Source of the DNA: an uncultured Eubacteriales bacterium
Lineage (GTDB): Bacteria > Bacillota > Clostridia > Christensenellales > CAG-138
Reading direction: 5' to 3'
Assembly (NCBI GenBank): GCA_900544555.1
Contig: UQWD01000003.1
Location: forward strand, 66,519-130,518
DNA length: 64,000 bases
Below the pieces are notes generated by a model. It was not told the origin of the DNA, made no database searches, and saw nothing but the letters and a program-made list of their open reading frames with translations. Position 1 is the first letter of the stretch. Each line of letters begins with the position of its first letter. This document shows, piece by piece, positions 1,826-56,370 of this stretch. The translations under genes and the position numbers were made by a program.

Positions 1826-3724
1826 ATGCCGCGTCGCGTTATGAACTTAATATTGGCGTCCGCCATTTTGCTTACATTTTTTCTCTGTGCGTGCTCGAGT
1901 CAAGACAAGGCTGAGGAGGCGGACCCATATAAGGGCTTTCATTCAAACGAACGCCTGTCCGGAGGCGGCCCGGTCGAAGCGGCCAACGCGCGGAGCGTAT
2001 CGGCCGCGGCAAAGGGCGAGACAGCCCGGGTTACATTCGCTTTTTCATCCGGGAGCCGAATTTCCGATGGCTCTCAAGAGAAAGCGGCGCCCGGCATTCC
2101 GGCTTATTCCGTATATATGCTCCCATCTCCCGCGAGGCTGGTTGTGGAATTTGAGGGGCTGTCCTATTGGGATTACGACAGAGACGTTCAATTGCCCGAG
2201 GAATGGTTTCACGGTTCGTTTCAGCATATGGTAAACGGGCTTGAAACGGTTTGGGTATATTTCCAGCTTAAGAAGGACGACGTTGTTTTTCAGGTAGAAG
2301 AGCATGATGAAGGGCTCAGCATAATTTTAAAAGAAAAAACTCATGCAGCACAGACTACCGACAGCCCTGGGGGAGCGCCGGAGTTGAATTATTACGCGGT
2401 CGCCAACGCATATAAGGATTATTGCAGCGGCAATATCTCGCGTGAGATGGATATGTACCCCTGCCTCACAAGGGATGGGGATCATATCATTCTGATATCG
2501 GGGGCGTTTGAGACTGAGCAGGAAGCCAAGGATTACCGCGCCTCCACGATAAAAGCGACTGAAAACGCGCTGGCGGAACAATGGGGCGTATCCGCGCTGC
2601 GCCCGGGCTCGCTCCCTGCTTATAATGAACAACTTGATTATGCGGCGGCATATGCGCAAAATGTAGCCCGCATCGACGGAACGGATCAGACGCTCCCCGT
2701 TTTATTGCCTAACGGTCAGTACCTTACGGAGGTTCCCGGCGGTGAGGCGCTTCTTTATGCCCGGCGCATAAGCGTAGGGGTCGAAACGGATGATGAGAGC
2801 GAGGGGGAAGATGGCGACGCGTCGGCGTCGTCATACGATGAGCTTTGGATGTCGGATAAAAGGGGAGGTTCGCAAAAAAGATTGATCCGCTACGAGTTTG
2901 CGTCTATTGAACGGGCGGTATATTCGCCGGACGGGCGAAAGCTTGCGGTGCTTGAGCGTTCGTCCGAAGGCTCGCACCTGTATATTTACGACACGGACAC
3001 TTACCATTTAATAGCCGATCTGACCGAGTTGGGTTTTGGCAATATGGTGAGCGACTTCACTTGGGATAATTTCGGCGGGGCGGTATATGCGCTGAGCGGC
3101 TCCTCCGGCATGCAGATACATATGTATGATTTCTCCGTACCCGACGAGGGCAAGCGGTACAGCCTGGTGGATGATAAAGGCGCGGACGAAGGTGATATTG
3201 GGTATAGCGGCGGGGAATTGTTCTTCACGCAGTCCGACATCGACTCATCATCCATTTATCGGATAAAGCCGGAAGGCGGCGTTCGCAAACCGTTTGCCGC
3301 GGGCGGGAAATTCGCGGTTTCAGCGGATGGAAGATATATGGCGCTTTACAGAACAGGCGTTGGGGGTGAAGGCGCGTTTATACTACGCAGCATGGAAACG
3401 GGGGAAGAAAAGGAAATAGCTTGCGATTTTCCTGTGAATGAGCTTTTATGGTCGCCAAAGGCGGACAGCGTATATTACCTTGAGAACAGGCTTTCTGGAG
3501 GCGAGGGAGAGGACGGCGGAGGCGAGGAAACGGTTGACGCCGATCCTTACCCTTATACCTTATGGGTTTATGACGTTGCAAGCGGAGAATCTCGCGCTTT
3601 AGCGGACCTGGCCGGTACTTCCATTACCCCGTCGCCCGACGGAAGCGCGATTTACATACATTATGTGGATAAGGATACGATGGGTGAGCGTATAAACGCG
3701 ACTTACATTTTGAATATGGAATAA
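1826..3724 (+). CDS. Lipoprotein with C-terminal TolB/PD40-like beta-propeller repeats
   Basis: ATG at 1826 has AAGAGGG upstream. The signal/lipobox is MNLILASAILLTFFLCAC. Repeated motifs YSPDGRKLAV, VSADGRYMAL and PSPDGSAIYI are typical of PD40 repeats. The track start at 1796 is a TTG without an SD. Confidence 0.7.
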   Translation: MPRRVMNLILASAILLTFFLCACSSQDKAEEADPYKGFHSNERLSGGGPVEAANARSVSAAAKGETARVTFAFSSGSRISDGSQEKAAPGIPAYSVYMLPSPARLVVEFEGLSYWDYDRDVQLPEEWFHGSFQHMVNGLETVWVYFQLKKDDVVFQVEEHDEGLSIILKEKTHAAQTTDSPGGAPELNYYAVANAYKDYCSGNISREMDMYPCLTRDGDHIILISGAFETEQEAKDYRASTIKATENALAEQWGVSALRPGSLPAYNEQLDYAAAYAQNVARIDGTDQTLPVLLPNGQYLTEVPGGEALLYARRISVGVETDDESEGEDGDASASSYDELWMSDKRGGSQKRLIRYEFASIERAVYSPDGRKLAVLERSSEGSHLYIYDTDTYHLIADLTELGFGNMVSDFTWDNFGGAVYALSGSSGMQIHMYDFSVPDEGKRYSLVDDKGADEGDIGYSGGELFFTQSDIDSSSIYRIKPEGGVRKPFAAGGKFAVSADGRYMALYRTGVGGEGAFILRSMETGEEKEIACDFPVNELLWSPKADSVYYLENRLSGGEGEDGGGEETVDADPYPYTLWVYDVASGESRALADLAGTSITPSPDGSAIYIHYVDKDTMGERINATYILNME

Positions 3725-9031: not shown

Positions 9032-9107
9032 TGGCACCCGGTAGGGGAGTCGAACCCCTGTTACCGCCGTGAGAGGGCGGTGTCCTAGGCCACTAGACGA
9101 ACCGAGC
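9032..9107 (-). tRNA. tRNA-Glu (anticodon CTC)
   Basis: Acceptor GCTCGGT/ACCGGGT, anticodon arm CCGCC-CTCTCAC-GGCGG, T-arm AGGGGTTCGACTCCCCT, and an encoded CCA. Confidence 0.9.
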
Positions 9108-18418: not shown

Positions 18419-18465
18419 CGCTTGACATTATAAGGCGCGGCGCATAAACTGTTTTTATGTATATT

Positions 18466-18699
18466 GGCGAAGACGGAGAGGAGTACGCGCGTAATTATGC
18501 GTCAGAGAGGCCGCCCCACCGGCTGAAAGGGTTGCCGGCAAAAAGGCGCGGAACGTCGCTCCCGAGCTTTCCGGGCGATATGTAGTACGGAACGGGCGCA
18601 TACCGTTATCATGCTTGAGTGGAATGTATTTTTGATGCATTCAACAAAGGTGGTACCGCGAGCCGGCCCTCTCGTCCTTTGAATGAGAGGGCTTTTGTT
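18466..18699 (+). promoter_or_regulatory. T-box leader (valine-specific) of valS
   Basis: Conserved T-box sequence AAAGGTGGTACCGCG (18647-18660). The terminator GCCCTCTCGTCCTTTGAATGAGAGGGC is followed by TTTTGTT. An AGAGA/GTAC stem I element is present. The candidate specifier GTC (Val) lies at 18555-18557, in GAACGTCG. Confidence 0.85.
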
Positions 18700-22744: not shown

Positions 22745-22821
22745 GCGCCTGTAGCTCAGCAGGATAGAGCAACGGCCTTCTAAGCCGTAGGTCCCGGGTT
22801 CGAATCCCTGCGGGCGCGCCA
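22745..22821 (+). tRNA. tRNA-Arg (TCT)
   Basis: GCGCCTGTAGCTCAG... with anticodon arm ACGGC-CTTCTAA-GCCGT and an encoded CCA. Confidence 0.9.
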
Positions 22822-22829
22822 ATTTTTGT

Positions 22830-22907
22830 GGTGGGTATAGTTCAGTTGGCTAGAACGCCAGATTGTGGCTCTGGAGGTCGTGGGTTCGAGACCCACTACT
22901 CACCCCA
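22830..22907 (+). tRNA. tRNA-His (GTG) with G-1
   Basis: Extra 5' G. Anticodon arm CCAGA-TTGTGGC-TCTGG, with the 3' end ...TACTCACCCCA. Confidence 0.9.
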
Positions 22908-22930
22908 TCTTTCAATAACGCCGGGGTTAT

Positions 22931-23005
22931 TGGGGTGTCGCCAAGCGGTAAGGCACGGGACTTTGACTCCCGCACTCGTAGGTTCAAATCCTGCCACCCC
23001 AGCCA
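22931..23005 (+). tRNA. tRNA-Gln (TTG)
   Basis: TGGGGTG acceptor. Anticodon arm CGGGA-CTTTGAC-TCCCG, with the 3' end CACCCCAGCCA. Confidence 0.9.
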
Positions 23006-23010
23006 TTTTT

Positions 23011-23086
23011 GACCCGTTAGCTCAGCCGGTAGAGCACTTGACTTTTAATCAAGGTGTCCGGAGTTCGAATCTCCGACGGGTCACCA
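23011..23086 (+). tRNA. tRNA-Lys (TTT)
   Basis: GACCCGTTAGCTCAG... with anticodon arm CTTGA-CTTTTAA-TCAAG. Confidence 0.9.
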
Positions 23087-23101
23087 TTTTTCTATCTGTA
23101 A

Positions 23102-23186
23102 GCGGGCGTGGCGGAATTGGCAGACGCGCCAGATTTAGGTTCTGGTGCCAAAAGGCGTATGAGTTCGAGTCTCTTCGCCCGCACCA
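23102..23186 (+). tRNA. tRNA-Leu (TAG)
   Basis: 85 nt with a long variable arm and anticodon arm CCAGA-TTTAGGT-TCTGG. Confidence 0.9.
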
Positions 23187-23201
23187 TTTACCTTTTTCCT
23201 T

Positions 23202-23277
23202 GCGGGAATAGCTCATTCGGTAGAGCGCCGCCTTGCCAAGGCGGAGGTGGCGGGTTCGAACCCCGTTTCCCGCTCCA
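23202..23277 (+). tRNA. tRNA-Gly (GCC)
   Basis: GCGGGAATAGCTCA... with anticodon arm CCGCC-TTGCCAA-GGCGG. Confidence 0.9.
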
Positions 23278-23283
23278 GAAAAC

Positions 23284-23357
23284 GCGGATGTAGTGTAATG
23301 GTAACACATTAGCCTTCCAAGCTGAGATAGTGGGTTCGAGTCCCATCATCCGCTCCA
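23284..23357 (+). tRNA. tRNA-Gly (TCC)
   Basis: GCGGATGTAGTGTAATGG... with anticodon loop CTTCCAA. Confidence 0.9.
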
Positions 23358-23366
23358 GCAAAATAT

Positions 23367-23442
23367 GGGCCGTTAGCTCAGTTGGTAGAGCACCTGACTC
23401 TTAATCAGGGTGTCCCGGGTTCGAGCCCCTGACGGCCCACCA
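23367..23442 (+). tRNA. tRNA-Lys (CTT)
   Basis: GGGCCGTTAGCTCAG... with anticodon arm CCTGA-CTCTTAA-TCAGG. Confidence 0.9.
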
Positions 23443-30789: not shown

Positions 30790-31011
30790 ATGGATAATTG
30801 GGAGCGCCTCGCCAAACGCTTGATTTTCGCGCTTGAAAGCAGCCGTATACGGGAATACGCGAACATGCTGGGGAGTACCAGGCGGATAATCTGGGTGAGC
30901 TTCGTATCAGGGATTTTTCGCGGGCTCGGCGGCGCTATTGGCTTTAGCGCGCTTGGAGCGATAGCGCTTTTCATATTGAGCCGCATATTCGGTATTGAGT
31001 TTGGGGGATAG
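30790..31011 (+). CDS. DUF5665-like small membrane protein
   Basis: RIREYANMLGSTRRIIWVSFVSGIFRGLGGAIGFSALGAIALFIL match the family. AAGGGGG SD. Confidence 0.6.
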   Translation: MDNWERLAKRLIFALESSRIREYANMLGSTRRIIWVSFVSGIFRGLGGAIGFSALGAIALFILSRIFGIEFGG

Positions 31012-31499
31012 CCGTCCCGCGGCGGCTTTTCATGTATTGCTCTTATATGTAGAGACTCTTCAAGGTAACGGATGGATATATAAAACACCTTAATTCAACA
31101 GTTAAGGAACGCAGGCTAAGCATTGTATTTTACGCGAGCATTGCATGAACAAGTTAATATAAACCAAAGCCATAGATCAAAAGTATGCTGTTTGTCATAT
31201 GATATATTTTTATATAAGTAATAGGAATTCACGAGCAGACTTAATTGGTTAAAACGCAACACTTCAAAGGTTCAATAGGAGTAGCGAGTCCCCGTATCCT
31301 GAAGCAAGAATTATTTTGCGGTTTCCAATCGGTATTTTTTCAAGGTTTAGCATATCGAATTGCCAAGCTGACCGCCGAGCATTAAAGCTTAATCAAAGGT
31401 ATGTTTTCTTCAAAAACGAGTTAAAGGAATCCGGGCAAATCCGCAAGAGCGTTTATTTTGCTGCAGGAAAAGCGGGAACAACAGCCATGCAGGGCGCTA

Positions 31500-31546
31500 A
31501 ACAAAGCGGCGGGATAGATAACAGCTATCCCGCCGCTTTGTTTTCT
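31500..31546. terminator. 18-bp perfect hairpin overlapping the stop codon of the CPBP gene
   Basis: AACAAAGCGGCGGGATAG / CTATCCCGCCGCTTTGTT with a 7-nt loop and T-rich flanks. Confidence 0.7.
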
Positions 31547-32337
31547 TCCATGCTCATTTTATTGTGTGTCACAACGGTTATGATAGAAATAAGAATAATG
31601 ACGGCGTTAGCGATGAGGGTTCCCGCCCAAGTCGTTGTCATGGTGCTAAAGATAGGAGAAGCCGCATTGAACATGGTGTGAAATAGCACGCACATAAATA
31701 CACTGCTTTTTCCTGATATTTTGCAGATTGCGCCGAAGAAAAACCGAAAAGCCATGCATTGAACGGCAAACATCCACAAATTAACTAGTCCTTCTCCATG
31801 ATCTGTCCCTGGTATGAAGAAAAGGGGGATATGCCATAAAACCCAAATCAATCCAGTTATAGTAGAGGATAAAATAAAACCATACTTTCTGTTCAGTTCA
31901 GGCTGCAATATATATGCCCATCCAGCTTCCTCCAAGCCACCGATAAAAAGATTTCCCGGCAGAGAAAGAAAAAGCGTATAAAATGGAAGCGCAATTTCTG
32001 TACGTCCTGATGCTACTGCGTGAAAAGAAAAATACAATGCAAGCCCTAAAATAATGAACAAATAAGGATATATGTTATTTTTAGCATAGAAAACAGCCCT
32101 CAACCATACCTTCAAATTTGCTACTGTATTACTTTTCTTCAGAACAATATATGATGCAATAGCTGGCGACAAAATATAGATTGCGAAAGGAATATTCATT
32201 GCAAATTGCTTTAGTGTGTCAACCCAATTATACACTCTGTACCCGATTTGTCCGAGGACAATCAGAACACCTGATACAGCATAGGCTATGCAAAATGTCA
32301 GCACGACAAACTGCAATGTGATTTTTTTGCCTGTCAT
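31525..32337 (-). CDS. CPBP-family intramembrane glutamic endopeptidase (CAAX protease/Abi-like)
   Basis: Multi-TM protein with GGLEEAGWAY (EE motif) and FHTMFN (H motif). Confidence 0.75.
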   Translation of the reverse strand: MTGKKITLQFVVLTFCIAYAVSGVLIVLGQIGYRVYNWVDTLKQFAMNIPFAIYILSPAIASYIVLKKSNTVANLKVWLRAVFYAKNNIYPYLFIILGLALYFSFHAVASGRTEIALPFYTLFLSLPGNLFIGGLEEAGWAYILQPELNRKYGFILSSTITGLIWVLWHIPLFFIPGTDHGEGLVNLWMFAVQCMAFRFFFGAICKISGKSSVFMCVLFHTMFNAASPIFSTMTTTWAGTLIANAVIILISIITVVTHNKMSMEENKAAG

Positions 32338-32418
32338 GACTTGTTCTCCCAGATCTACACTTTATCAAACAATTATATATAAAACAATAATTATATTGCT
32401 TTTACTCATTCAAACTTC

Positions 32419-32628
32419 TCCGCCGAAAGCGGGGAACAGGATAAGAAAATCTGATCCCCGCTTACGTCTGCTACATTATACAGCAGCAAAATCATCTTCA
32501 CCGGAGCGTTGGTTTCGTTTGCCTTTAGCGGTGGCTCTGAACCCACGGACCCGAACTCTACCAAAGAACAAAGCGTGACAACGACAGGCAGACCGTACGG
32601 GAAAGCCTTGCGCATGCCGATTCTTTGC
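32419..32628. repeat. Unclassified conserved structured noncoding element, copy 1 of 2
   Basis: Blockwise homology to 56149-56370: CGCCG..GAAA..CGGGGAACAGGATAA.AAAATC, TTGGTTT, CCAAAGAACA, AAAGCGTGACAA, GCAGAC and GCATG. One stem shows compensatory changes between copies. No conserved ORF is present. Confidence 0.5.
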
Positions 32629-32696
32629 ATCATCGTCTTTAAAAGCTTAATCCCGCCCTTATAAAGCGCTTCGTTAAAGCGACGGCACGCAGGCAA

Positions 32697-38067: not shown

Positions 38068-38144
38068 CTGGGTGTGGCGCAGTTTGGTAGCGTGCTTGAA
38101 TGGGGTTCAAGAGGCCGGAAGTTCGAATCTTCTCACCCAGACCA
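38068..38144 (+). tRNA. tRNA-Pro (GGG)
   Basis: Acceptor CTGGGTG/CACCCAG, anticodon arm CTTGA-ATGGGGT-TCAAG, T-arm GGAAGTTCGAATCTTCT, and an encoded CCA. Confidence 0.85.
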
Positions 38145-52985: not shown

Positions 52986-53146
52986 GCGCGAATCGCTTTC
53001 TTTAATGAGACAAAGAATGATTGAACACCTCCAAAAAGCTCGAAATCAATATATTATATGTGGCGAAATTATCCTCATGCACGTTCACAATCACGCCATG
53101 GGATCATACGTATAAAAGTAGAAAATTAAGGGGCGGTGAAAGGCGT

Positions 53147-54202
53147 ATGGACATTACACGGCGTTTTTTTGCGGGAAGCAATACGGCTTACGGTTTTCAG
53201 GGTTATTTTGACAGTATTATCAACATTGCGGATGTGGAACGGGTTTATATTCTTAAAGGCGGGCCGGGGGTTGGTAAAAGCGGGCTTATGAAGCGCATAG
53301 GCCAATACGCGAAGGAGCTTGGATATGAGCTGGTTTACTATCATTGTTCGAGCGATCCTGACAGCCTGGACGCGCTGACGATACCCGCGCTGAAAATCGC
53401 ATTGATGGATGGTACGGCACCGCATACCGTTGACCCGCGTTTTCCCGGCGCCGTTGATGAAATAATTAACCTTGGCGAATTTTTAAGCACGCCCGCTCTA
53501 ATTGGGCGGCGTGAGGAAATTTTTGACGTACAAACCCGAATAAGCGGTCGTTTTAATCGCGCGTACTGCTATACGCTAGCCGCCGAGAGTATGAGGACGG
53601 CGGCGAGCCTTGACTTAAGATGGAATACGGCAAAGACAAATCAATTACTGATGCAGATGTTTGAGGAACTTAACGCGTACGGCAGCGCCGCGGAACCCTT
53701 TGGTCGGGTCAAAGATCTGTACCTGTCTGCGATAACGCCGGATGGGATTGTCGACTTTACGAGTGATGCGGTAAGGAAAACCGTCTGGAGAGTACTGGCG
53801 CCATGGTATGCGGATATTACAAGCTGGTTAGACCGATACTGCGAGGTGGCCATTATGCAGGGAATGGATGTTATGCGCTGCCACGATCCGCTCAACCCCA
53901 AAAGGCTATCGCACCTCATTGTTGATAGTTCGCTTATGATTACGACTTCAACCAAGTCGGGTATCGCCGAGTTTGATGCGGATTGGGAAACGGATCTGTA
54001 TCCTTATATCATACAGGGAGATTCTGAAAAAGGCCGCGATGACAAGGCGGCGTATGATTCGCTGCTCGCCGGAGCGGTAGAATCTCTTGCCGAAGCAAAA
54101 CGCTTGCATGATGAGCTTGAACGACCTTATGCTGAGGCGATGAACTTCAAAGAAGTTGACGCTGTGCGTGAGAAATTAAAACATCAGATATTTCATAGGT
54201 AA
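53147..54202 (+). CDS. P-loop NTPase of unknown function
   Basis: ILKGGPGVGKSG Walker A, 351 aa from ATG 53147. The track start at 53021 would overlap the dpaA promoter region. Confidence 0.65.
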   Translation: MDITRRFFAGSNTAYGFQGYFDSIINIADVERVYILKGGPGVGKSGLMKRIGQYAKELGYELVYYHCSSDPDSLDALTIPALKIALMDGTAPHTVDPRFPGAVDEIINLGEFLSTPALIGRREEIFDVQTRISGRFNRAYCYTLAAESMRTAASLDLRWNTAKTNQLLMQMFEELNAYGSAAEPFGRVKDLYLSAITPDGIVDFTSDAVRKTVWRVLAPWYADITSWLDRYCEVAIMQGMDVMRCHDPLNPKRLSHLIVDSSLMITTSTKSGIAEFDADWETDLYPYIIQGDSEKGRDDKAAYDSLLAGAVESLAEAKRLHDELERPYAEAMNFKEVDAVREKLKHQIFHR

Positions 54203-54364
54203 AAGTAAAGTACAATTTAAAACCGTATGGAGCGTGCGGGCGGGGCCGAGCCCGCGCGCTGAACCGGCGGCTTACCTGCAACCTAGGCGCTAGTTATCTA
54301 AAAAATTATGATTATTCCGTGCTTTATATGGCGTTGAGAAAGTCATGCGCGTTTCTCCCATCGT

Positions 54365-55285
54365 TTACGATATGGATACCTGAGATACTTTGGAGGTACA
54401 CGCTTTCCTCTCCGAAACAATCATGTTATCTTTCGGCCAGCCAATCAGCATAGGTGAAGCCGGATCGTGCCGATTAAAATTATTGTGCGCCGTCAATCGG
54501 TTTTTAGTTGCATAACAATATTTGCAGCCATTGAGGCAAGTACCATAAGCTCCGACATCCACGCTTTCAATGCAGCCGCATTCATGGCGCTGCCCTTTAT
54601 CCTTATTTGAATTTAAGGAACAGCCGATTATCCGCTCTATTCGATTCTTATCAATACAGGAAGCCCGCTTAATGCCAAACTGCTGTAAATCTAATTTTTC
54701 GGAGCAGGTTGCAAGCTTTAAGCGGTGTTTTTTTGCTATTTCCGAAAAAGCTTTTCCGATGGCTTGCATTTGTTCAATACGAATATCCTGTACGATATTG
54801 CGAATATGAGAGTAGCTGTCAACGAAGCTAAAGATGCACTCGTCTACGTTTTTAATTTTCTCACACAGAGAATCAAATTGTTCAATATGATATTGCACCG
54901 AATATGTTTTGTCAAGTATAATCGGATCGTATCGCCATACAAGGCGATGTTTACCAGCCTTTTCAGATAACCTAAAAAACGAATCGAGCCGTTTTTCTAG
55001 TGAAGGCAGATTGCTCTCGCATACTTTTCCATAAGGGGTAAGCGTATACTGAAAATAGTAGTTGTAGCCTAAATCTGTAACGATATTAAGGTCATTAAGC
55101 ATGGGCGCAGGGTTTTTCGTCCAAAACACAATGCAATCCGTTATATCAGGCGATAACCGCAGTTTTGATACACGCAGCGCGTTGTATGGATTTTGAACGA
55201 GTACATAGCCAGCAAGCAATCTATTGACAAACCATTTTCCATAATAGGATGGAATATCAGTGCGGCGGCTCGCGCTTATTATCAT
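54365..55285 (-). CDS. DUF1848 domain protein (C-terminal Cys cluster)
   Basis: The N-terminus MIISASRRTDIPSYYGKWF is typical of DUF1848. C-terminal cluster: CGCIESVDVGAYGTCLNGCKYCYA. Confidence 0.75.
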   Translation of the reverse strand: MIISASRRTDIPSYYGKWFVNRLLAGYVLVQNPYNALRVSKLRLSPDITDCIVFWTKNPAPMLNDLNIVTDLGYNYYFQYTLTPYGKVCESNLPSLEKRLDSFFRLSEKAGKHRLVWRYDPIILDKTYSVQYHIEQFDSLCEKIKNVDECIFSFVDSYSHIRNIVQDIRIEQMQAIGKAFSEIAKKHRLKLATCSEKLDLQQFGIKRASCIDKNRIERIIGCSLNSNKDKGQRHECGCIESVDVGAYGTCLNGCKYCYATKNRLTAHNNFNRHDPASPMLIGWPKDNMIVSERKACTSKVSQVSIS

Positions 55286-55559
55286 TATCCGTCCCCTCCC
55301 ATAAAACTATTTTATCGCAATAAAAATTTTATTTGATTCTGTTCATTGTATCCCAAAATTAAAATCCTTTCCACAGCTATGCGAACAAGCCTGGGGTGCT
55401 TGCGCAGAGGATAGCTAGGTATTAGGCGCAGGGCAGAACTTATTGTTTTAGCGAAATCTAGATGGATATTTTTAATCCGAAAACAAAAAAAGGGCCTTTT
55501 TATATCTAGAAATGTTGAAGCATCACCGATAAACAAGCATCAAGCCTACTATGAAGCTA

Positions 55560-55830
55560 CGCCACGGGGAAGTTAACGGAAAACCACTTTTCCTGTCTGC
55601 TGACAGGCTACGACACTTAACCCAAACGCTTGACGGGGAAATCGAATGGCTACAAGCTAAGATTGACCGGTAGAACACCGAACCGACAGCTTAAGGGCTG
55701 ACAAGTTTATTGAACTTGTGAAGCGCCACACCGAGTTTACAGGGTTTTACGCTTCCCTTTTAATTGAGTTTGTGGAAAAGGAAATCGTCCATGAAGCCAT
55801 AGAATGGCGGAGTGAGGGAGCGGGAAGTTA
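55560..55830 (+). pseudogene. Decayed 3' fragment of a large serine recombinase gene
   Basis: Three-frame fragments: GEIEWLQAKIDR*, then DKFIELVKRHTEFTGFYASLLIEFVEKEIVHEA... This resembles the conserved C-terminal FxELVxKYTxxxELTxxLLxEFVxKIxVHE of large serine recombinases. Multiple stops and frameshifts are present. Confidence 0.6.
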
Positions 55831-55833
55831 AAT

Positions 55834-55926
55834 TCATCTTTTATTTTTTCTTTTGAATCCATAATATATAGCTATGCCGGCACATATTATCGCCGCTCCT
55901 ATCGCTATCCACAAAGCTAAACTCAT
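55834..55926 (-). CDS. 30-aa hydrophobic peptide with basic C-terminus (type I toxin-like / small membrane protein)
   Basis: GGAGGG SD 7 nt upstream of ATG 55926. It encodes MSLALWIAIGAAIICAGIAIYYGFKRKNKR. A TATAAT box lies ~85 nt upstream. It is below the track cut-off. Confidence 0.5.
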   Translation of the reverse strand: MSLALWIAIGAAIICAGIAIYYGFKRKNKR

Positions 55927-56148
55927 TGATATTCCCTCCTAACAAAAAATCCCGATTTGTTGATTAAGCTTTTTCGACAAAGGTGAATTGAATAATCACA
56001 TTATACTGCATTTAACCGTTTCAAACAATGTCAAGTGATCTTTTCTCTATCCGTTCCACCTATCCAGCCCGTCAATGGACGATCACAAATGACGTGAAAA
56101 AATCTCCACCTTTAGAACCATTGACTAGCAGGATTTTTGCCGTGGCAT

Positions 56149-56370
56149 TTCGCCGTTGAAAACGGGGAACAGGATAAAAAATCCTATCGCCCGTTTCCGT
56201 CCGCTTCATTTTCGGCAAAACCGGCTCCACTGGTGCGGCGGCAATTATTTGGTTTGACGGTGGGTCCGCCCCCGCACCCCCGGCCTAGCCCAAAGAACAG
56301 AATTAAGGGCAAAGCGTGACAATCAGATGCAGACACTTAGAATTTTTACGCAGCCGTCAAACCCGCATGG
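56149..56370. repeat. Unclassified conserved structured noncoding element, copy 2 of 2
   Basis: Homologous blocks shared with 32419-32628. This copy also has an 11-bp inverted repeat AAGCGTGACAA (56312-56322) / TTGTCACGCTT (~56381-56391), followed by TTGTTTTTT. Confidence 0.5.

What the first reader, a model, noticed from the sequence alone, without database searches (positions are those of the whole stretch)
32419..32628. Conserved ~210-nt noncoding element present twice in the window (copy 1), with compensatory stem changes
Seen in sequence:
- 32419-32628 and 56149-56370 share ordered blocks on the same strand: CGCCG-GAAA-CGGGGAACAGGATAA-AAAATC, TTGGTTT, CCAAAGAACA, AAAGCGTGACAA, GCAGAC and GCATG. 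Divergent, indel-rich spacers separate the blocks.
- A stem is maintained by a double compensatory change. Copy 1 has GCGGGGA...TCCCCGC and copy 2 has AACGGG...CCCGTT.
- An inner AGGAT/ATCCT-type hairpin with an A-rich loop is retained in both copies.
- An upstream mini-hairpin (CCGTT-GAAA-AACGG in copy 2, CCGC-CGAAA-GCGG in copy 1) competes for the same bases.
- No ORF is conserved between the copies. The 96-aa track ORF exists only in copy 1.

This copy lies between an ABC exporter operon and a CPBP/Abi-like protease gene. I could not match it to cobalamin, TPP, c-di-AMP, T-box or group II intron signatures. It may be a new structured RNA or a noncoding module of a mobile element.
Basis: partly seen in the sequence, partly recalled or inferred. 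Interest (0 to 1): 0.7.

Follow-up and report, generated by a model that had tools for sequence, protein, structure and literature searches.

The report
Decayed single-strand replication origin relics
The two similar noncoding stretches are worn-down leftovers of a small mobile element's "single-strand origin", a folded DNA signal that lets transferred single-stranded DNA be copied back into a double strand; this is a known kind of signal, not a new RNA.

Summary
The two copies are homologous (nhmmer E about 1e-17), no ORF is conserved, and the stems covary. The interpretation as a new structured RNA is not supported.

A DNA-pattern scan found the same element in 55 genomes, mostly mouse-gut Clostridia. 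In most of these loci (about 40) it is the right-hand noncoding arm of a 5.2-kb integrative mobilizable element (IME). This IME carries a large serine recombinase, DUF3847, a MobA/MobL relaxase and a variable cargo gene. Where its left end lies within the 8-kb locus (four loci), it is inserted in a traG/VirD4 coupling-protein gene.

The element is not the oriT. A textbook MOBQ oriT (TATAAGTGCGCCCT) lies elsewhere in the IME.

The conserved core is homologous to the pUB110 region between oriT and ble, where the ssoU lagging-strand origin maps, and to 448 Firmicutes plasmids. It shares pUB110's two-hairpin single-stranded DNA fold. It folds better on the strand that carries the nick site, which is the transferred strand.

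Both window copies are decayed. Copy 1 lacks one hairpin. Copy 2 has a 10-nt deletion in the most conserved stem. Each sits at the edge of a low-GC islet next to a relic of a relaxase or recombinase gene.

Verdict: relics of an ssoU-like single-strand origin, a new member of a known kind. Interest is low to moderate.

The parts
32416..32628 (-). Copy 1: a truncated relic of the ssoU-like element. It keeps the apex of hairpin A (stem 32429-32435 / 32455-32461), a degenerate hairpin C and the CCAAAGAACA block (32562-32571). Hairpin B is missing. The tail 32579-32628 is shared only with copy 2.
   Evidence: blastn to 50+ family loci covers rel -12..+140 at 71-77% identity. The predicted active strand is the window minus strand.
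31363..31486 (+). Relic of the 3' end of a MobA/MobL relaxase gene (IRKSVY motif), left of the cargo slot.
   Evidence: blastn to the relaxase 3' end gives 71-75% over 130 nt, E down to 3e-15. tblastn gives 65% over 23 aa, E 2e-4.
31525..32337 (-). CPBP/Rce1-like protease gene. It occupies the same position as the variable cargo gene of the mobile element, between the relaxase end and the origin, on the opposite strand.
   Evidence: Pfam PF02517, E 1.4e-9. The position is compared with the cargo genes of related loci. It lies in a low-GC islet, 35-44%.
56042..56521 (-). Copy 2: a nearly full-length but damaged right arm of the mobile element (rel -130..+358). Hairpin B is at about 56061-56137 and has lost 10 nt (the AAAAAATACTAC partner). 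Hairpin A is at 56136-56222, hairpin C at about 56257-56283, and CCCAAAGAACAGAA at 56289-56302. A lineage-specific inverted repeat lies at 56311-56322 / 56382-56392. The terminal segment 56414-56521 holds the TTGACA box (56499-56504) that forms half of the junction promoter in intact elements.
   Evidence: blastn gives 76-80% over 266-277 nt, E to 4e-59, plus 84-94% over 56414-56464. The core folds weakly: -29 kcal/mol against about -53 for intact members.
55694..55846 (+). Relic of the C-terminal (DUF4368) part of a large serine recombinase gene, just left of copy 2.
   Evidence: tblastn with the element's recombinase matches residues 492-542 at 33% identity, E 0.002. It lies in a low-GC islet, 54300-56100.

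Best explanation
The element is an ssoU-like single-strand origin (sso) belonging to a family of small integrative mobilizable elements (IMEs).

Shown:
- In intact relatives a 5.2-kb IME carries a large serine recombinase, a DUF3847 protein, a MobA/MobL (MOBQ) relaxase with a canonical oriT, one variable cargo gene and a noncoding right arm of about 550 nt.
- The conserved core of this arm is about 270 nt.
- Its hairpins A and B are homologous to the pUB110 region where ssoU maps, and fold the same way as single-stranded DNA.

Inferred mechanism:
- After excision the relaxase nicks oriT, and the nicked strand is displaced or transferred as single-stranded DNA.
- On that strand the core folds into two long imperfect hairpins (A and B) plus a short GC hairpin (C).
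- Host RNA polymerase recognises the folded DNA and makes a short primer.
- The complementary strand is then synthesised, restoring the double-stranded circle that the serine recombinase needs for integration.

The two window copies are non-functional leftovers of two old insertions of such elements. Copy 1 has lost hairpin B and the base of hairpin A. Copy 2 has a deletion in hairpin B and has lost most of its folding energy.
For: (1) Family and context.
- 55 of 79 hits to a 19-nt core pattern are true homologues.
- In most of them (about 40) the flanks are 85-97% identical between different families of Clostridia, over more than 5 kb where the loci reach that far, as expected of a mobile element. 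The ten most divergent copies have no element genes within 8 kb.
- Gene content: PF00239/PF07508/DUF4368 recombinase, PF12958, PF03389.
- The insertion is exact, in a VirD4/TraG gene between ...EYGSARWG and ERKDIEPY....
- IMEs with PF03389 plus DUF3847 are a described class (PMC12084326).

(2) Not the oriT. The sequence IR CCACATTTATGTGG + TATATAAGTGCGCCCT lies between the DUF3847 and relaxase genes, on the minus strand. It is found in five of the six loci examined; in L025 the repeat is replaced but the TGCGCCCT core remains.

(3) Homology to plasmid origins.
- The core matches 448 Firmicutes plasmid records, 318 of them typed mobilizable.
- It matches pUB110 nt 1326-1490 (nhmmer E 1.6e-8; 1e-10 to a Macrococcoides plasmid).
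- In pUB110 this stretch lies between the oriT and ble. pUB110 1150-1230 holds the pMV158 oriT oligonucleotide 3570-3595 and the oligonucleotide 3541-3521.
- pMV158 has the order ssoU-oriT-mobM-ssoA (PMC5737340). The lagging-strand signal of pUB110 is placed next to ble (PMC7006159).

(4) Same fold.
- As single-stranded DNA, the intact element has MFE -72.4 kcal/mol, z -8.6.
- pUB110 has z -7.4, with the same two adjacent hairpins.

(5) Covariation across 23 sequences, including three plasmids.
- 89.2% of cells are paired, against 41-54% when partners are slid.
- 22 pairs change on both sides, against 7-15.
- 0 of 500 shuffles reach the observed values.

(6) Strand.
- The minus strand carries the nick sequence, and corresponds to the mob-coding (nicked) strand of the plasmids.
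- It folds better in 18 of 22 sequences, by a mean of -5 kcal/mol.
- It has 91 G-T against 48 A-C at paired positions, including a G-T kept in 18 sequences.

(7) An RSB-like motif, TTTTGCCGT(T)AGAA, lies at the base of hairpin A. Compare RSB TTTATGCCGAGAAAA (PMC6395029).

(8) Precedents for an sso in integrated elements: ICEBs1 sso1, found in the same way from 76% identity to a plasmid sso (PMC4595007), and IMESag-rpsI ssoA (PMC5090054).

(9) Decay of the window copies.
Against:
- I could not read the primary papers that give the exact ssoU coordinates in pUB110 and pMV158. The assignment of pUB110 1326-1490 to ssoU therefore rests on map position and secondary sources.
- Plasmid homology covers hairpin B and part of hairpin A only. 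Hairpin C and the CCCAAAGAACAGAA block have no plasmid counterpart.
- No CS-6 (TAGCGT) motif is in the loop.
- The strand asymmetry comes from related sequences and is not an independent-sample statistic.
- Ten divergent copies have no relaxase or recombinase within 8 kb. Their status as relics or as parts of larger elements is unknown.
Confidence: 0.78

Rival explanations
1. It is the origin of transfer (oriT) of the mobile element. The large inverted repeat would be the relaxase binding site, and ATCCTG/C or TGCG/CCCT within the arm would be the nick site.
For: There is a large inverted repeat. An ATCCTGC string lies in the hairpin, and a TTTGCGCCCT string lies at rel +272 in the right arm. 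Several loci have breakpoints near the hairpin loop.
Against: - A far better MOBQ oriT sits directly upstream of the relaxase gene. It has a perfect 6-bp inverted repeat followed by TATAAGTGCGCCCT, the 12/12 RSF1010/pIP501-type core as I recall it.
- The +272 string is poorly conserved (L007, L040, window copy 2).
- The breakpoints are explained by deletion between short direct repeats.
- The relaxase is MOBQ, not MOBP, so ATCCTG is not its expected site.
Confidence: 0.05
2. It is a structured RNA: either a cis-regulatory leader for the cargo gene transcribed from the minus strand, or a small RNA of the element.
For: The structure is conserved with covariation and G-U-compatible pairs on the minus strand. 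In the IME and in window copy 1, a minus-strand gene starts just downstream of it.
Against: - There is no Rfam family match, even at E up to 10.
- The downstream cargo genes are unrelated to each other.
- In about half of the solo copies the neighbouring gene converges on the element rather than following it.
- There is direct homology to a plasmid region that acts as DNA.
- No promoter is conserved upstream on the minus strand.
Confidence: 0.07
3. It is only a bidirectional transcription terminator or insulator at the end of the mobile element, together with the attP arm and half of a junction promoter. It would have no role in replication.
For: The central hairpin is GC-rich and flanked by A and T runs on both strands. 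It lies between convergent genes in several loci. The far right end does carry a TTGACA that would pair with CATAAT across the circular junction.
Against: - The consensus terminator scan does not call the hairpin in either window copy, because the T tail is only 3-4 nt.
- A terminator does not explain 270 nt of conserved sequence, or hairpin B with its plasmid homology and covariation.
- The attP and promoter functions need only the last 60 nt or so, which lie outside the conserved core.
Confidence: 0.08

Closest known systems
ssoU (palU) single-strand origin of pUB110 / pMV158-type rolling-circle plasmids
   Same: - Direct sequence homology over about 165 nt (77% over the best 83 nt).
- The same two adjacent long imperfect hairpins in the same strand.
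- An RSB-like motif at the base of a stem.
- The same polarity relative to the relaxase nick strand.
- Association with a mobilisation module.
   Different: - It resides in an integrated serine-recombinase element with a MOBQ relaxase, not a MOBV relaxase, and with no Rep/dso.
- The apex of hairpin A (GAAAACGGGGAACAGGATAAAAAAATCCTG...) is specific to this family.
- It has an extra GC hairpin C and a CCCAAAGAACAGAA block.
- Its hosts are anaerobic gut Clostridia.
sso1 of ICEBs1 and sso of Tn916 (Wright, Johnson and Grossman)
   Same: It is a single-strand origin carried by an integrated element that transfers as single-stranded DNA. sso1 was identified through similarity to a plasmid sso and is orientation-specific (PMC4595007).
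   Different: sso1 is related to the pTA1060/pBAA1 type (ssoT), not ssoU. Those elements are self-transmissible ICEs. Their sso activity has been shown experimentally, whereas here it is inferred.
ssoA of IMESag-rpsI (Streptococcus agalactiae IME)
   Same: It is a putative sso within a small mobilizable integrated element, next to the relaxase module (PMC5090054).
   Different: That element has a MOBV relaxase and an ssoA type origin, and a different integrase and target.
MOBQ2/DUF3847 integrative mobilizable elements of Faecalibacterium (PMC12084326)
   Same: It has the same backbone of a PF03389 relaxase plus a PF12958 protein with a recombinase. Names such as IME_Fpr918_traG_2 suggest the same target gene.
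   Different: That paper does not mention any single-strand origin. The family here was collected from mouse-gut Lachnospiraceae and Oscillospiraceae.

Membership tests
ssoU-type single-strand origin | Sequence similarity to the ssoU region of pUB110/pMV158-family plasmids | tested here: met
   The core matches 448 plasmid records, E to 3e-6 in a 7.3-Gb library. nhmmer gives E 1e-10 to 1.6e-8 to small plasmids including pUB110 1326-1490. The placement of ssoU there rests on map position (PMC5737340; PMC7006159), not on the primary coordinates. Window copy 1 lacks the homologous part.
ssoU-type single-strand origin | Extensive imperfect hairpins formed by one DNA strand, conserved in evolution | tested here: met
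   Single-stranded DNA folds give z -8.6 for the intact element and z -7.4 for pUB110, with the same two-hairpin layout. Of paired cells, 89% form pairs, and 22 pairs have double changes, above the slid and shuffled controls.
ssoU-type single-strand origin | RSB motif in the loop-distal part of a stem; CS-6 (TAGCGT/A) in a loop | tested here: inconclusive
   TTTTGCCGT(T)AGAA lies at the base of hairpin A. Compare RSB TTTATGCCGAGAAAA of a pT181-type ssoA (PMC6395029). No TAGCG motif is in the loops. I could not check whether ssoU itself has a CS-6.
ssoU-type single-strand origin | Orientation: the active strand is the displaced or transferred (nicked) strand | tested here: met
   The nick sequence TAAGTGCGCCCT is on the minus strand. 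The minus strand folds better in 18 of 22 sequences and has 91 G-T against 48 A-C. In the plasmids the matching strand is the mob-coding strand, and in pMV158 the nick lies on the mobM-coding strand (PMC5737340). That the nicked strand is the one written in the consensus is from general knowledge.
ssoU-type single-strand origin | Orientation-specific conversion of single-stranded to double-stranded DNA, primed by RNA polymerase | not testable with these tools
   This needs plasmid ssDNA accumulation assays or in vitro priming.
ssoU-type single-strand origin | Intact structure in the two window copies themselves | tested here: not met
   Copy 1 lacks hairpin B and the base of hairpin A. Copy 2 lacks 10 nt of hairpin B, and its core folds at -29 kcal/mol against about -53 for intact members, with no strand asymmetry. 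Whole-copy folds have z of only -0.6 to -2.4.
MOBQ origin of transfer | Inverted repeat followed by the nick core (T)AAGTGCG/CCCT next to the relaxase gene | tested here: not met
   The canonical site is at rel -2193, between the DUF3847 and relaxase genes, not in the element under study.
Known structured RNA family (Rfam) | Match to a covariance model at or near the gathering score | tested here: not met
   No hit falls on either copy at gathering threshold. Only chance-level hits with E above 0.08 appear at permissive thresholds.
MOBQ2/DUF3847 serine-recombinase IME (context of the element) | PF03389 relaxase plus PF12958 protein plus recombinase, with defined ends | tested here: met
   This is met in related loci. 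In the window only relics of the relaxase and recombinase genes remain.

The most novel reading that the evidence does not exclude
The ssoU-like module may be more than a priming site. It borders the slot where unrelated cargo genes are swapped, and it survives as a solo unit with fairly sharp limits (rel -125..+148) in many genomes. It could therefore act as a recombination hot spot (as RSB does in staphylococcal plasmids) that captures and shuffles cargo genes. It could also act as a single-strand promoter that transcribes across the circular junction into the recombinase gene as soon as the strand enters a new cell. Either would make it an active organiser of gene flow in gut Clostridia.
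Probability: 0.1. Interest if true: 0.6.

Novelty: new member of a known kind. Interest (0 to 1): 0.3.

Why it matters
For this window the result is a tidy annotation. Two puzzling conserved noncoding blocks, and the low-GC islets beside them, are scars of old mobile-element insertions and not a new riboswitch or sRNA.

More broadly, few single-strand origins have been documented in integrated elements (ICEBs1, Tn916, IMESag-rpsI). An ssoU relative in a 5-kb element that spreads between families of gut Clostridia suggests two things. The broad-host-range plasmid origin has been recruited by chromosomal hitchhikers. And such origins can be found by sequence and fold. That could help annotate mobilizable elements, and their relics, in gut metagenomes.

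Tried and rejected
(1) Rfam at gathering and permissive thresholds on the window and on an intact copy gave nothing credible.

(2) Coding reading. ORFs on both strands looked partly retained between copy 1 and the element. However, no frame is open across the family, and there is no Pfam hit.

(3) oriT reading. I considered this seriously because of the large inverted repeat and the ATCCTGC and TGCGCCCT strings. I rejected it once the canonical MOBQ oriT was found next to the relaxase gene.

(4) att-site direct repeats of one 23.7-kb island. I rejected this because the DNA between the copies is core chromosome (RecX, BirA, CoaD, tRNA and others), and each copy belongs to its own small low-GC islet.

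(5) Plain intrinsic terminator. The consensus scan does not call it.

(6) Searches that found nothing:
- The viral contig scan.
- The megablast of the element against plasmids.
- The metagenome scan with the window-lineage pattern, which gave one unrelated hit.
- pMV158 (NC_010096), which is not in the plasmid collection.
- Kramer 1998 (PMC27924), which is not held.

Full report
**Observation**

The two stretches are real and related. nhmmer aligns window 32414-32597 with 56146-56399 at E 1e-16 to 1e-17, and no third copy exists in the window. Rfam gives no match at gathering score, and only chance-level hits at permissive thresholds. Taken alone, the window copies do not fold unusually well, with z from -0.6 to -2.4.

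**Relatives**

I scanned one genome per species with the 19-nt core RCGGGGAACAGGATAARAA. This returned 79 loci. Of these, 55 carry the same flanking sequence. They come mostly from mouse-gut Lachnospiraceae and Oscillospiraceae. Others come from Erysipelotrichales, Defluviitaleaceae, Geosporobacter, Anaeromonas and Brevibacillus. Many sit near contig ends.

Between different bacterial families, the DNA to the left of the motif is 85-97% identical wherever the loci extend that far, over more than 5 kb in the longest of them. About 360-580 nt to the right are equally conserved. This is the signature of a recently spreading mobile element.

**The mobile element**

Coordinates below are relative to the motif start ("rel"). 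The element reads, in order:
- a large serine recombinase (Resolvase, Recombinase, Zn ribbon and DUF4368 domains);
- a DUF3847 protein;
- a 498-aa MobA/MobL relaxase;
- one variable gene on the opposite strand (DUF3784 plus TfoX_C, an SdpI-like protein, a Cys-rich protein, membrane proteins, HTH proteins);
- a noncoding arm from rel -197 to +358.

The junctions are exact. On the left, a VirD4/TraG-type coupling-protein gene ends ...EYGSARWG at rel -4834. On the right the same gene resumes as ERKDIEPYVDPDFYNNVLLTQTERL...GGSGSGKT just after rel +358. The unit is therefore a 5.2-kb integrative mobilizable element inserted in traG. In other loci the right end abuts unrelated genes (L013).

Elements with a PF03389 relaxase and a DUF3847 partner are a described class, the MOBQ2 IMEs of Faecalibacterium (PMC12084326).

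Joining the two ends would place TTGACA (right end) 17 nt from CATAAT (left end), in front of the recombinase gene. I read this directly from the sequence. Its function as a promoter is inferred.

**The window copies are relics**

Three further observations place the window copies in this context.
- Window 31363-31486 matches the 3' end of the relaxase gene (tblastn E 2e-4). The CPBP/Rce1-like gene (31525-32337, minus strand) therefore sits exactly in the cargo slot, followed by copy 1.
- Left of copy 2, window 55694-55846 matches the DUF4368 part of the recombinase (E 0.002).
- Copy 2 matches the arm from rel -130 to the very end of the element, about 56042-56521.

Both copies close a low-GC islet: 31000-32400 and 54300-56100, at 35-44% GC against about 53% around them. 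The DNA between and around the islets is ordinary chromosome, including GroEL, Fur, RecX, BirA, CoaD and ClpC-like genes. The copies are thus not the two ends of one island.

**What the arm is not**

It is not the oriT. In five of the six elements examined, the minus strand between the DUF3847 and relaxase genes carries CCACATTTATGTGG followed by TATATAAGTGCGCCCTTGC. In L025 the repeat is replaced but the TGCGCCCT core remains. By my knowledge of RSF1010 and pIP501, this is the standard MOBQ inverted repeat plus nick core. It also tells which strand is nicked and transferred: the minus strand in this orientation, which is the window minus strand.

It is not coding. No frame is open across the family, and the local ORFs hit no Pfam family.

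It is not called as an intrinsic terminator.

**What the arm is**

A sensitive blastn of the 300-nt core against 72,556 plasmids matched 448 records. They come from Enterococcus, Staphylococcus, Bacillus, Lactococcus and others, and 318 are typed mobilizable.

In small plasmids the match lies in the noncoding stretch upstream of the MobV/Pre gene. In pUB110 it is nt 1326-1490 (nhmmer E 1.6e-8). pUB110 1150-1230 contains the pMV158 oriT oligonucleotide (3570-3595) and the oligonucleotide 3541-3521 (PMC5737340). The match therefore corresponds to pMV158 at about 3260-3425, upstream of oriT. That is where ssoU lies in the published order ssoU-oriT-mobM-ssoA (PMC5737340; PMC5090054). It is also next to ble in pUB110, where the lagging-strand signal is placed (PMC7006159). 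I could not read the primary papers with the exact coordinates, so this step rests on map position.

Folded as single-stranded DNA, the intact element (minus strand) gives -72.4 kcal/mol, z -8.6. The pUB110 stretch gives z -7.4 with the same layout:
- hairpin A: TTTTG(C/T)CCGTT ... AACGG(C/A)CAAAA;
- hairpin B: CAAGGG..GGTGGAGATTTTTT..loop..AAAAAATACTACC..CCCTTG.

I built an alignment of 23 sequences: eight IME-type, ten divergent solo copies, the two window copies and three plasmids. On it, the two-hairpin structure pairs 89.2% of cells, against 41-54% when partners are slid. It has 22 pairs with changes on both sides, against 7-15 for the slid versions. It exceeds all 500 shuffles on every measure.

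The minus strand folds better than the plus strand in 18 of 22 sequences, including all three plasmids, by a mean of -5 kcal/mol. It has 91 G-T against 48 A-C at paired positions, with one G-T kept in 18 sequences. That is the strand carrying the nick sequence, and the strand equivalent to the mob-coding (nicked) strand of the plasmids. An sso works only on that strand (PMC5703833; PMC4595007).

The base of hairpin A reads TTTTGCCGT(T)AGAA, which is close to the RSB motif TTTATGCCGAGAAAA (PMC6395029). No CS-6 is seen.

**Mechanism**

The shown steps are: membership of the arm in a MOBQ/serine-recombinase IME; the position and strand of oriT; homology and shared fold with the ssoU region; covariation; and strand bias.

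The inferred steps are as follows. After nicking, the displaced or transferred minus strand folds. Host RNA polymerase primes on the folded DNA. The complementary strand is made. The resulting double-stranded circle is integrated by the serine recombinase.

There are precedents. ICEBs1 sso1 was found from 76% identity to a plasmid sso and then proven (PMC4595007). IMESag-rpsI carries a putative ssoA (PMC5090054).

**State of the window copies**

Copy 1 keeps only rel -12..+150 and lacks hairpin B. Copy 2 lacks the 10 nt that pair with AAAAATCTCCAC in hairpin B. Its core folds at about -29 kcal/mol on either strand, against about -53 for intact members. Both copies are best read as inactive scars.

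The blocks AAAGCGTGACAA, GCAGAC and GCATG are shared only by the two window copies, so both derive from one sub-lineage. That sub-lineage was not recovered elsewhere: the metagenome scan gave one unrelated hit.

**Open points**

- Ten divergent copies (L012, L019, L027, L031, L036, L049, L052, L056, L058, L077) have no relaxase or recombinase within 8 kb. They may be relics or parts of larger elements.
- The conserved unit has fairly sharp limits (rel -125..+148) and borders the cargo slot. This leaves room for an additional role in recombination or early transcription. I rate that as unlikely but not excluded.

**Verdict**

The "mobile-element module" reading is right and the "new structured RNA" reading is not. 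The element is a new member of a known kind (an ssoU-type single-strand origin, here in a clostridial IME), and the window holds only decayed copies.

Noticed in passing
L064/L046/L060/L029 (rel -4834 and +358 from the motif); for example L064 oriented junctions shown: The 5.2-kb element splits a VirD4/TraG-type coupling-protein gene exactly between ...EYGSARWG and ERKDIEPY.... Joining its ends would create a TTGACA-17 nt-CATAAT promoter in front of the serine recombinase gene, so the recombinase may be expressed mainly from the excised circle.
   Followed up: partly
L064, L046, L029, L040, L006 at rel about -2193 to -2945 (minus strand), between the DUF3847 and relaxase genes: A canonical MOBQ-type oriT: inverted repeat CCACATTTATGTGG followed by TATATAAGTGCGCCCTTGC.
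   Followed up: yes
window 53021-55926: The low-GC islet left of copy 2 holds a STAND-like NTPase gene (53021-54202, +), a DUF1848 gene (54365-55285, -) and a 30-aa hydrophobic ORF (55834-55926, -). They may be cargo of the decayed element.
   Followed up: no
window 56311-56322 and 56382-56392: Copy 2 carries a perfect 11-nt inverted repeat (AAGCGTGACAA / TTGTCACGCTT) about 60 nt apart, which is absent from the mouse-gut family. Copy 1 has only the left half.
   Followed up: no
L035 (motif at oriented position 442); L039, L066, L021: In L035 hairpin A has been converted to a perfect palindrome with 34-nt arms. L039, L066 and L021 carry internal deletions between short direct repeats (CCTGCCCCGTTT at about rel +22 and +285).
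   Followed up: partly
L019 (NZ_LMVP01000145.1, Methanosarcina spelaei contig, 4.7 kb): A Firmicutes-type copy of the element sits next to a MATE-like gene on a contig assigned to an archaeon. This is either contamination of the assembly or horizontal transfer.
   Followed up: no
window 18461-18682 (+); 22745-23439 (+); 38068-38141 (+); 9035-9107 (-): A T-box leader (108 bits) and a cluster of eight tRNA genes, plus two single tRNA genes. These are ordinary chromosomal features unrelated to the finding.
   Followed up: no
window 32406-32696 (-): Gene callers in public assemblies annotate a 96-aa ORF here. It is simply the read-through frame after the ABC transporter stop codon, lying across the relic, and has no family match. 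It is probably a false gene call.
   Followed up: partly
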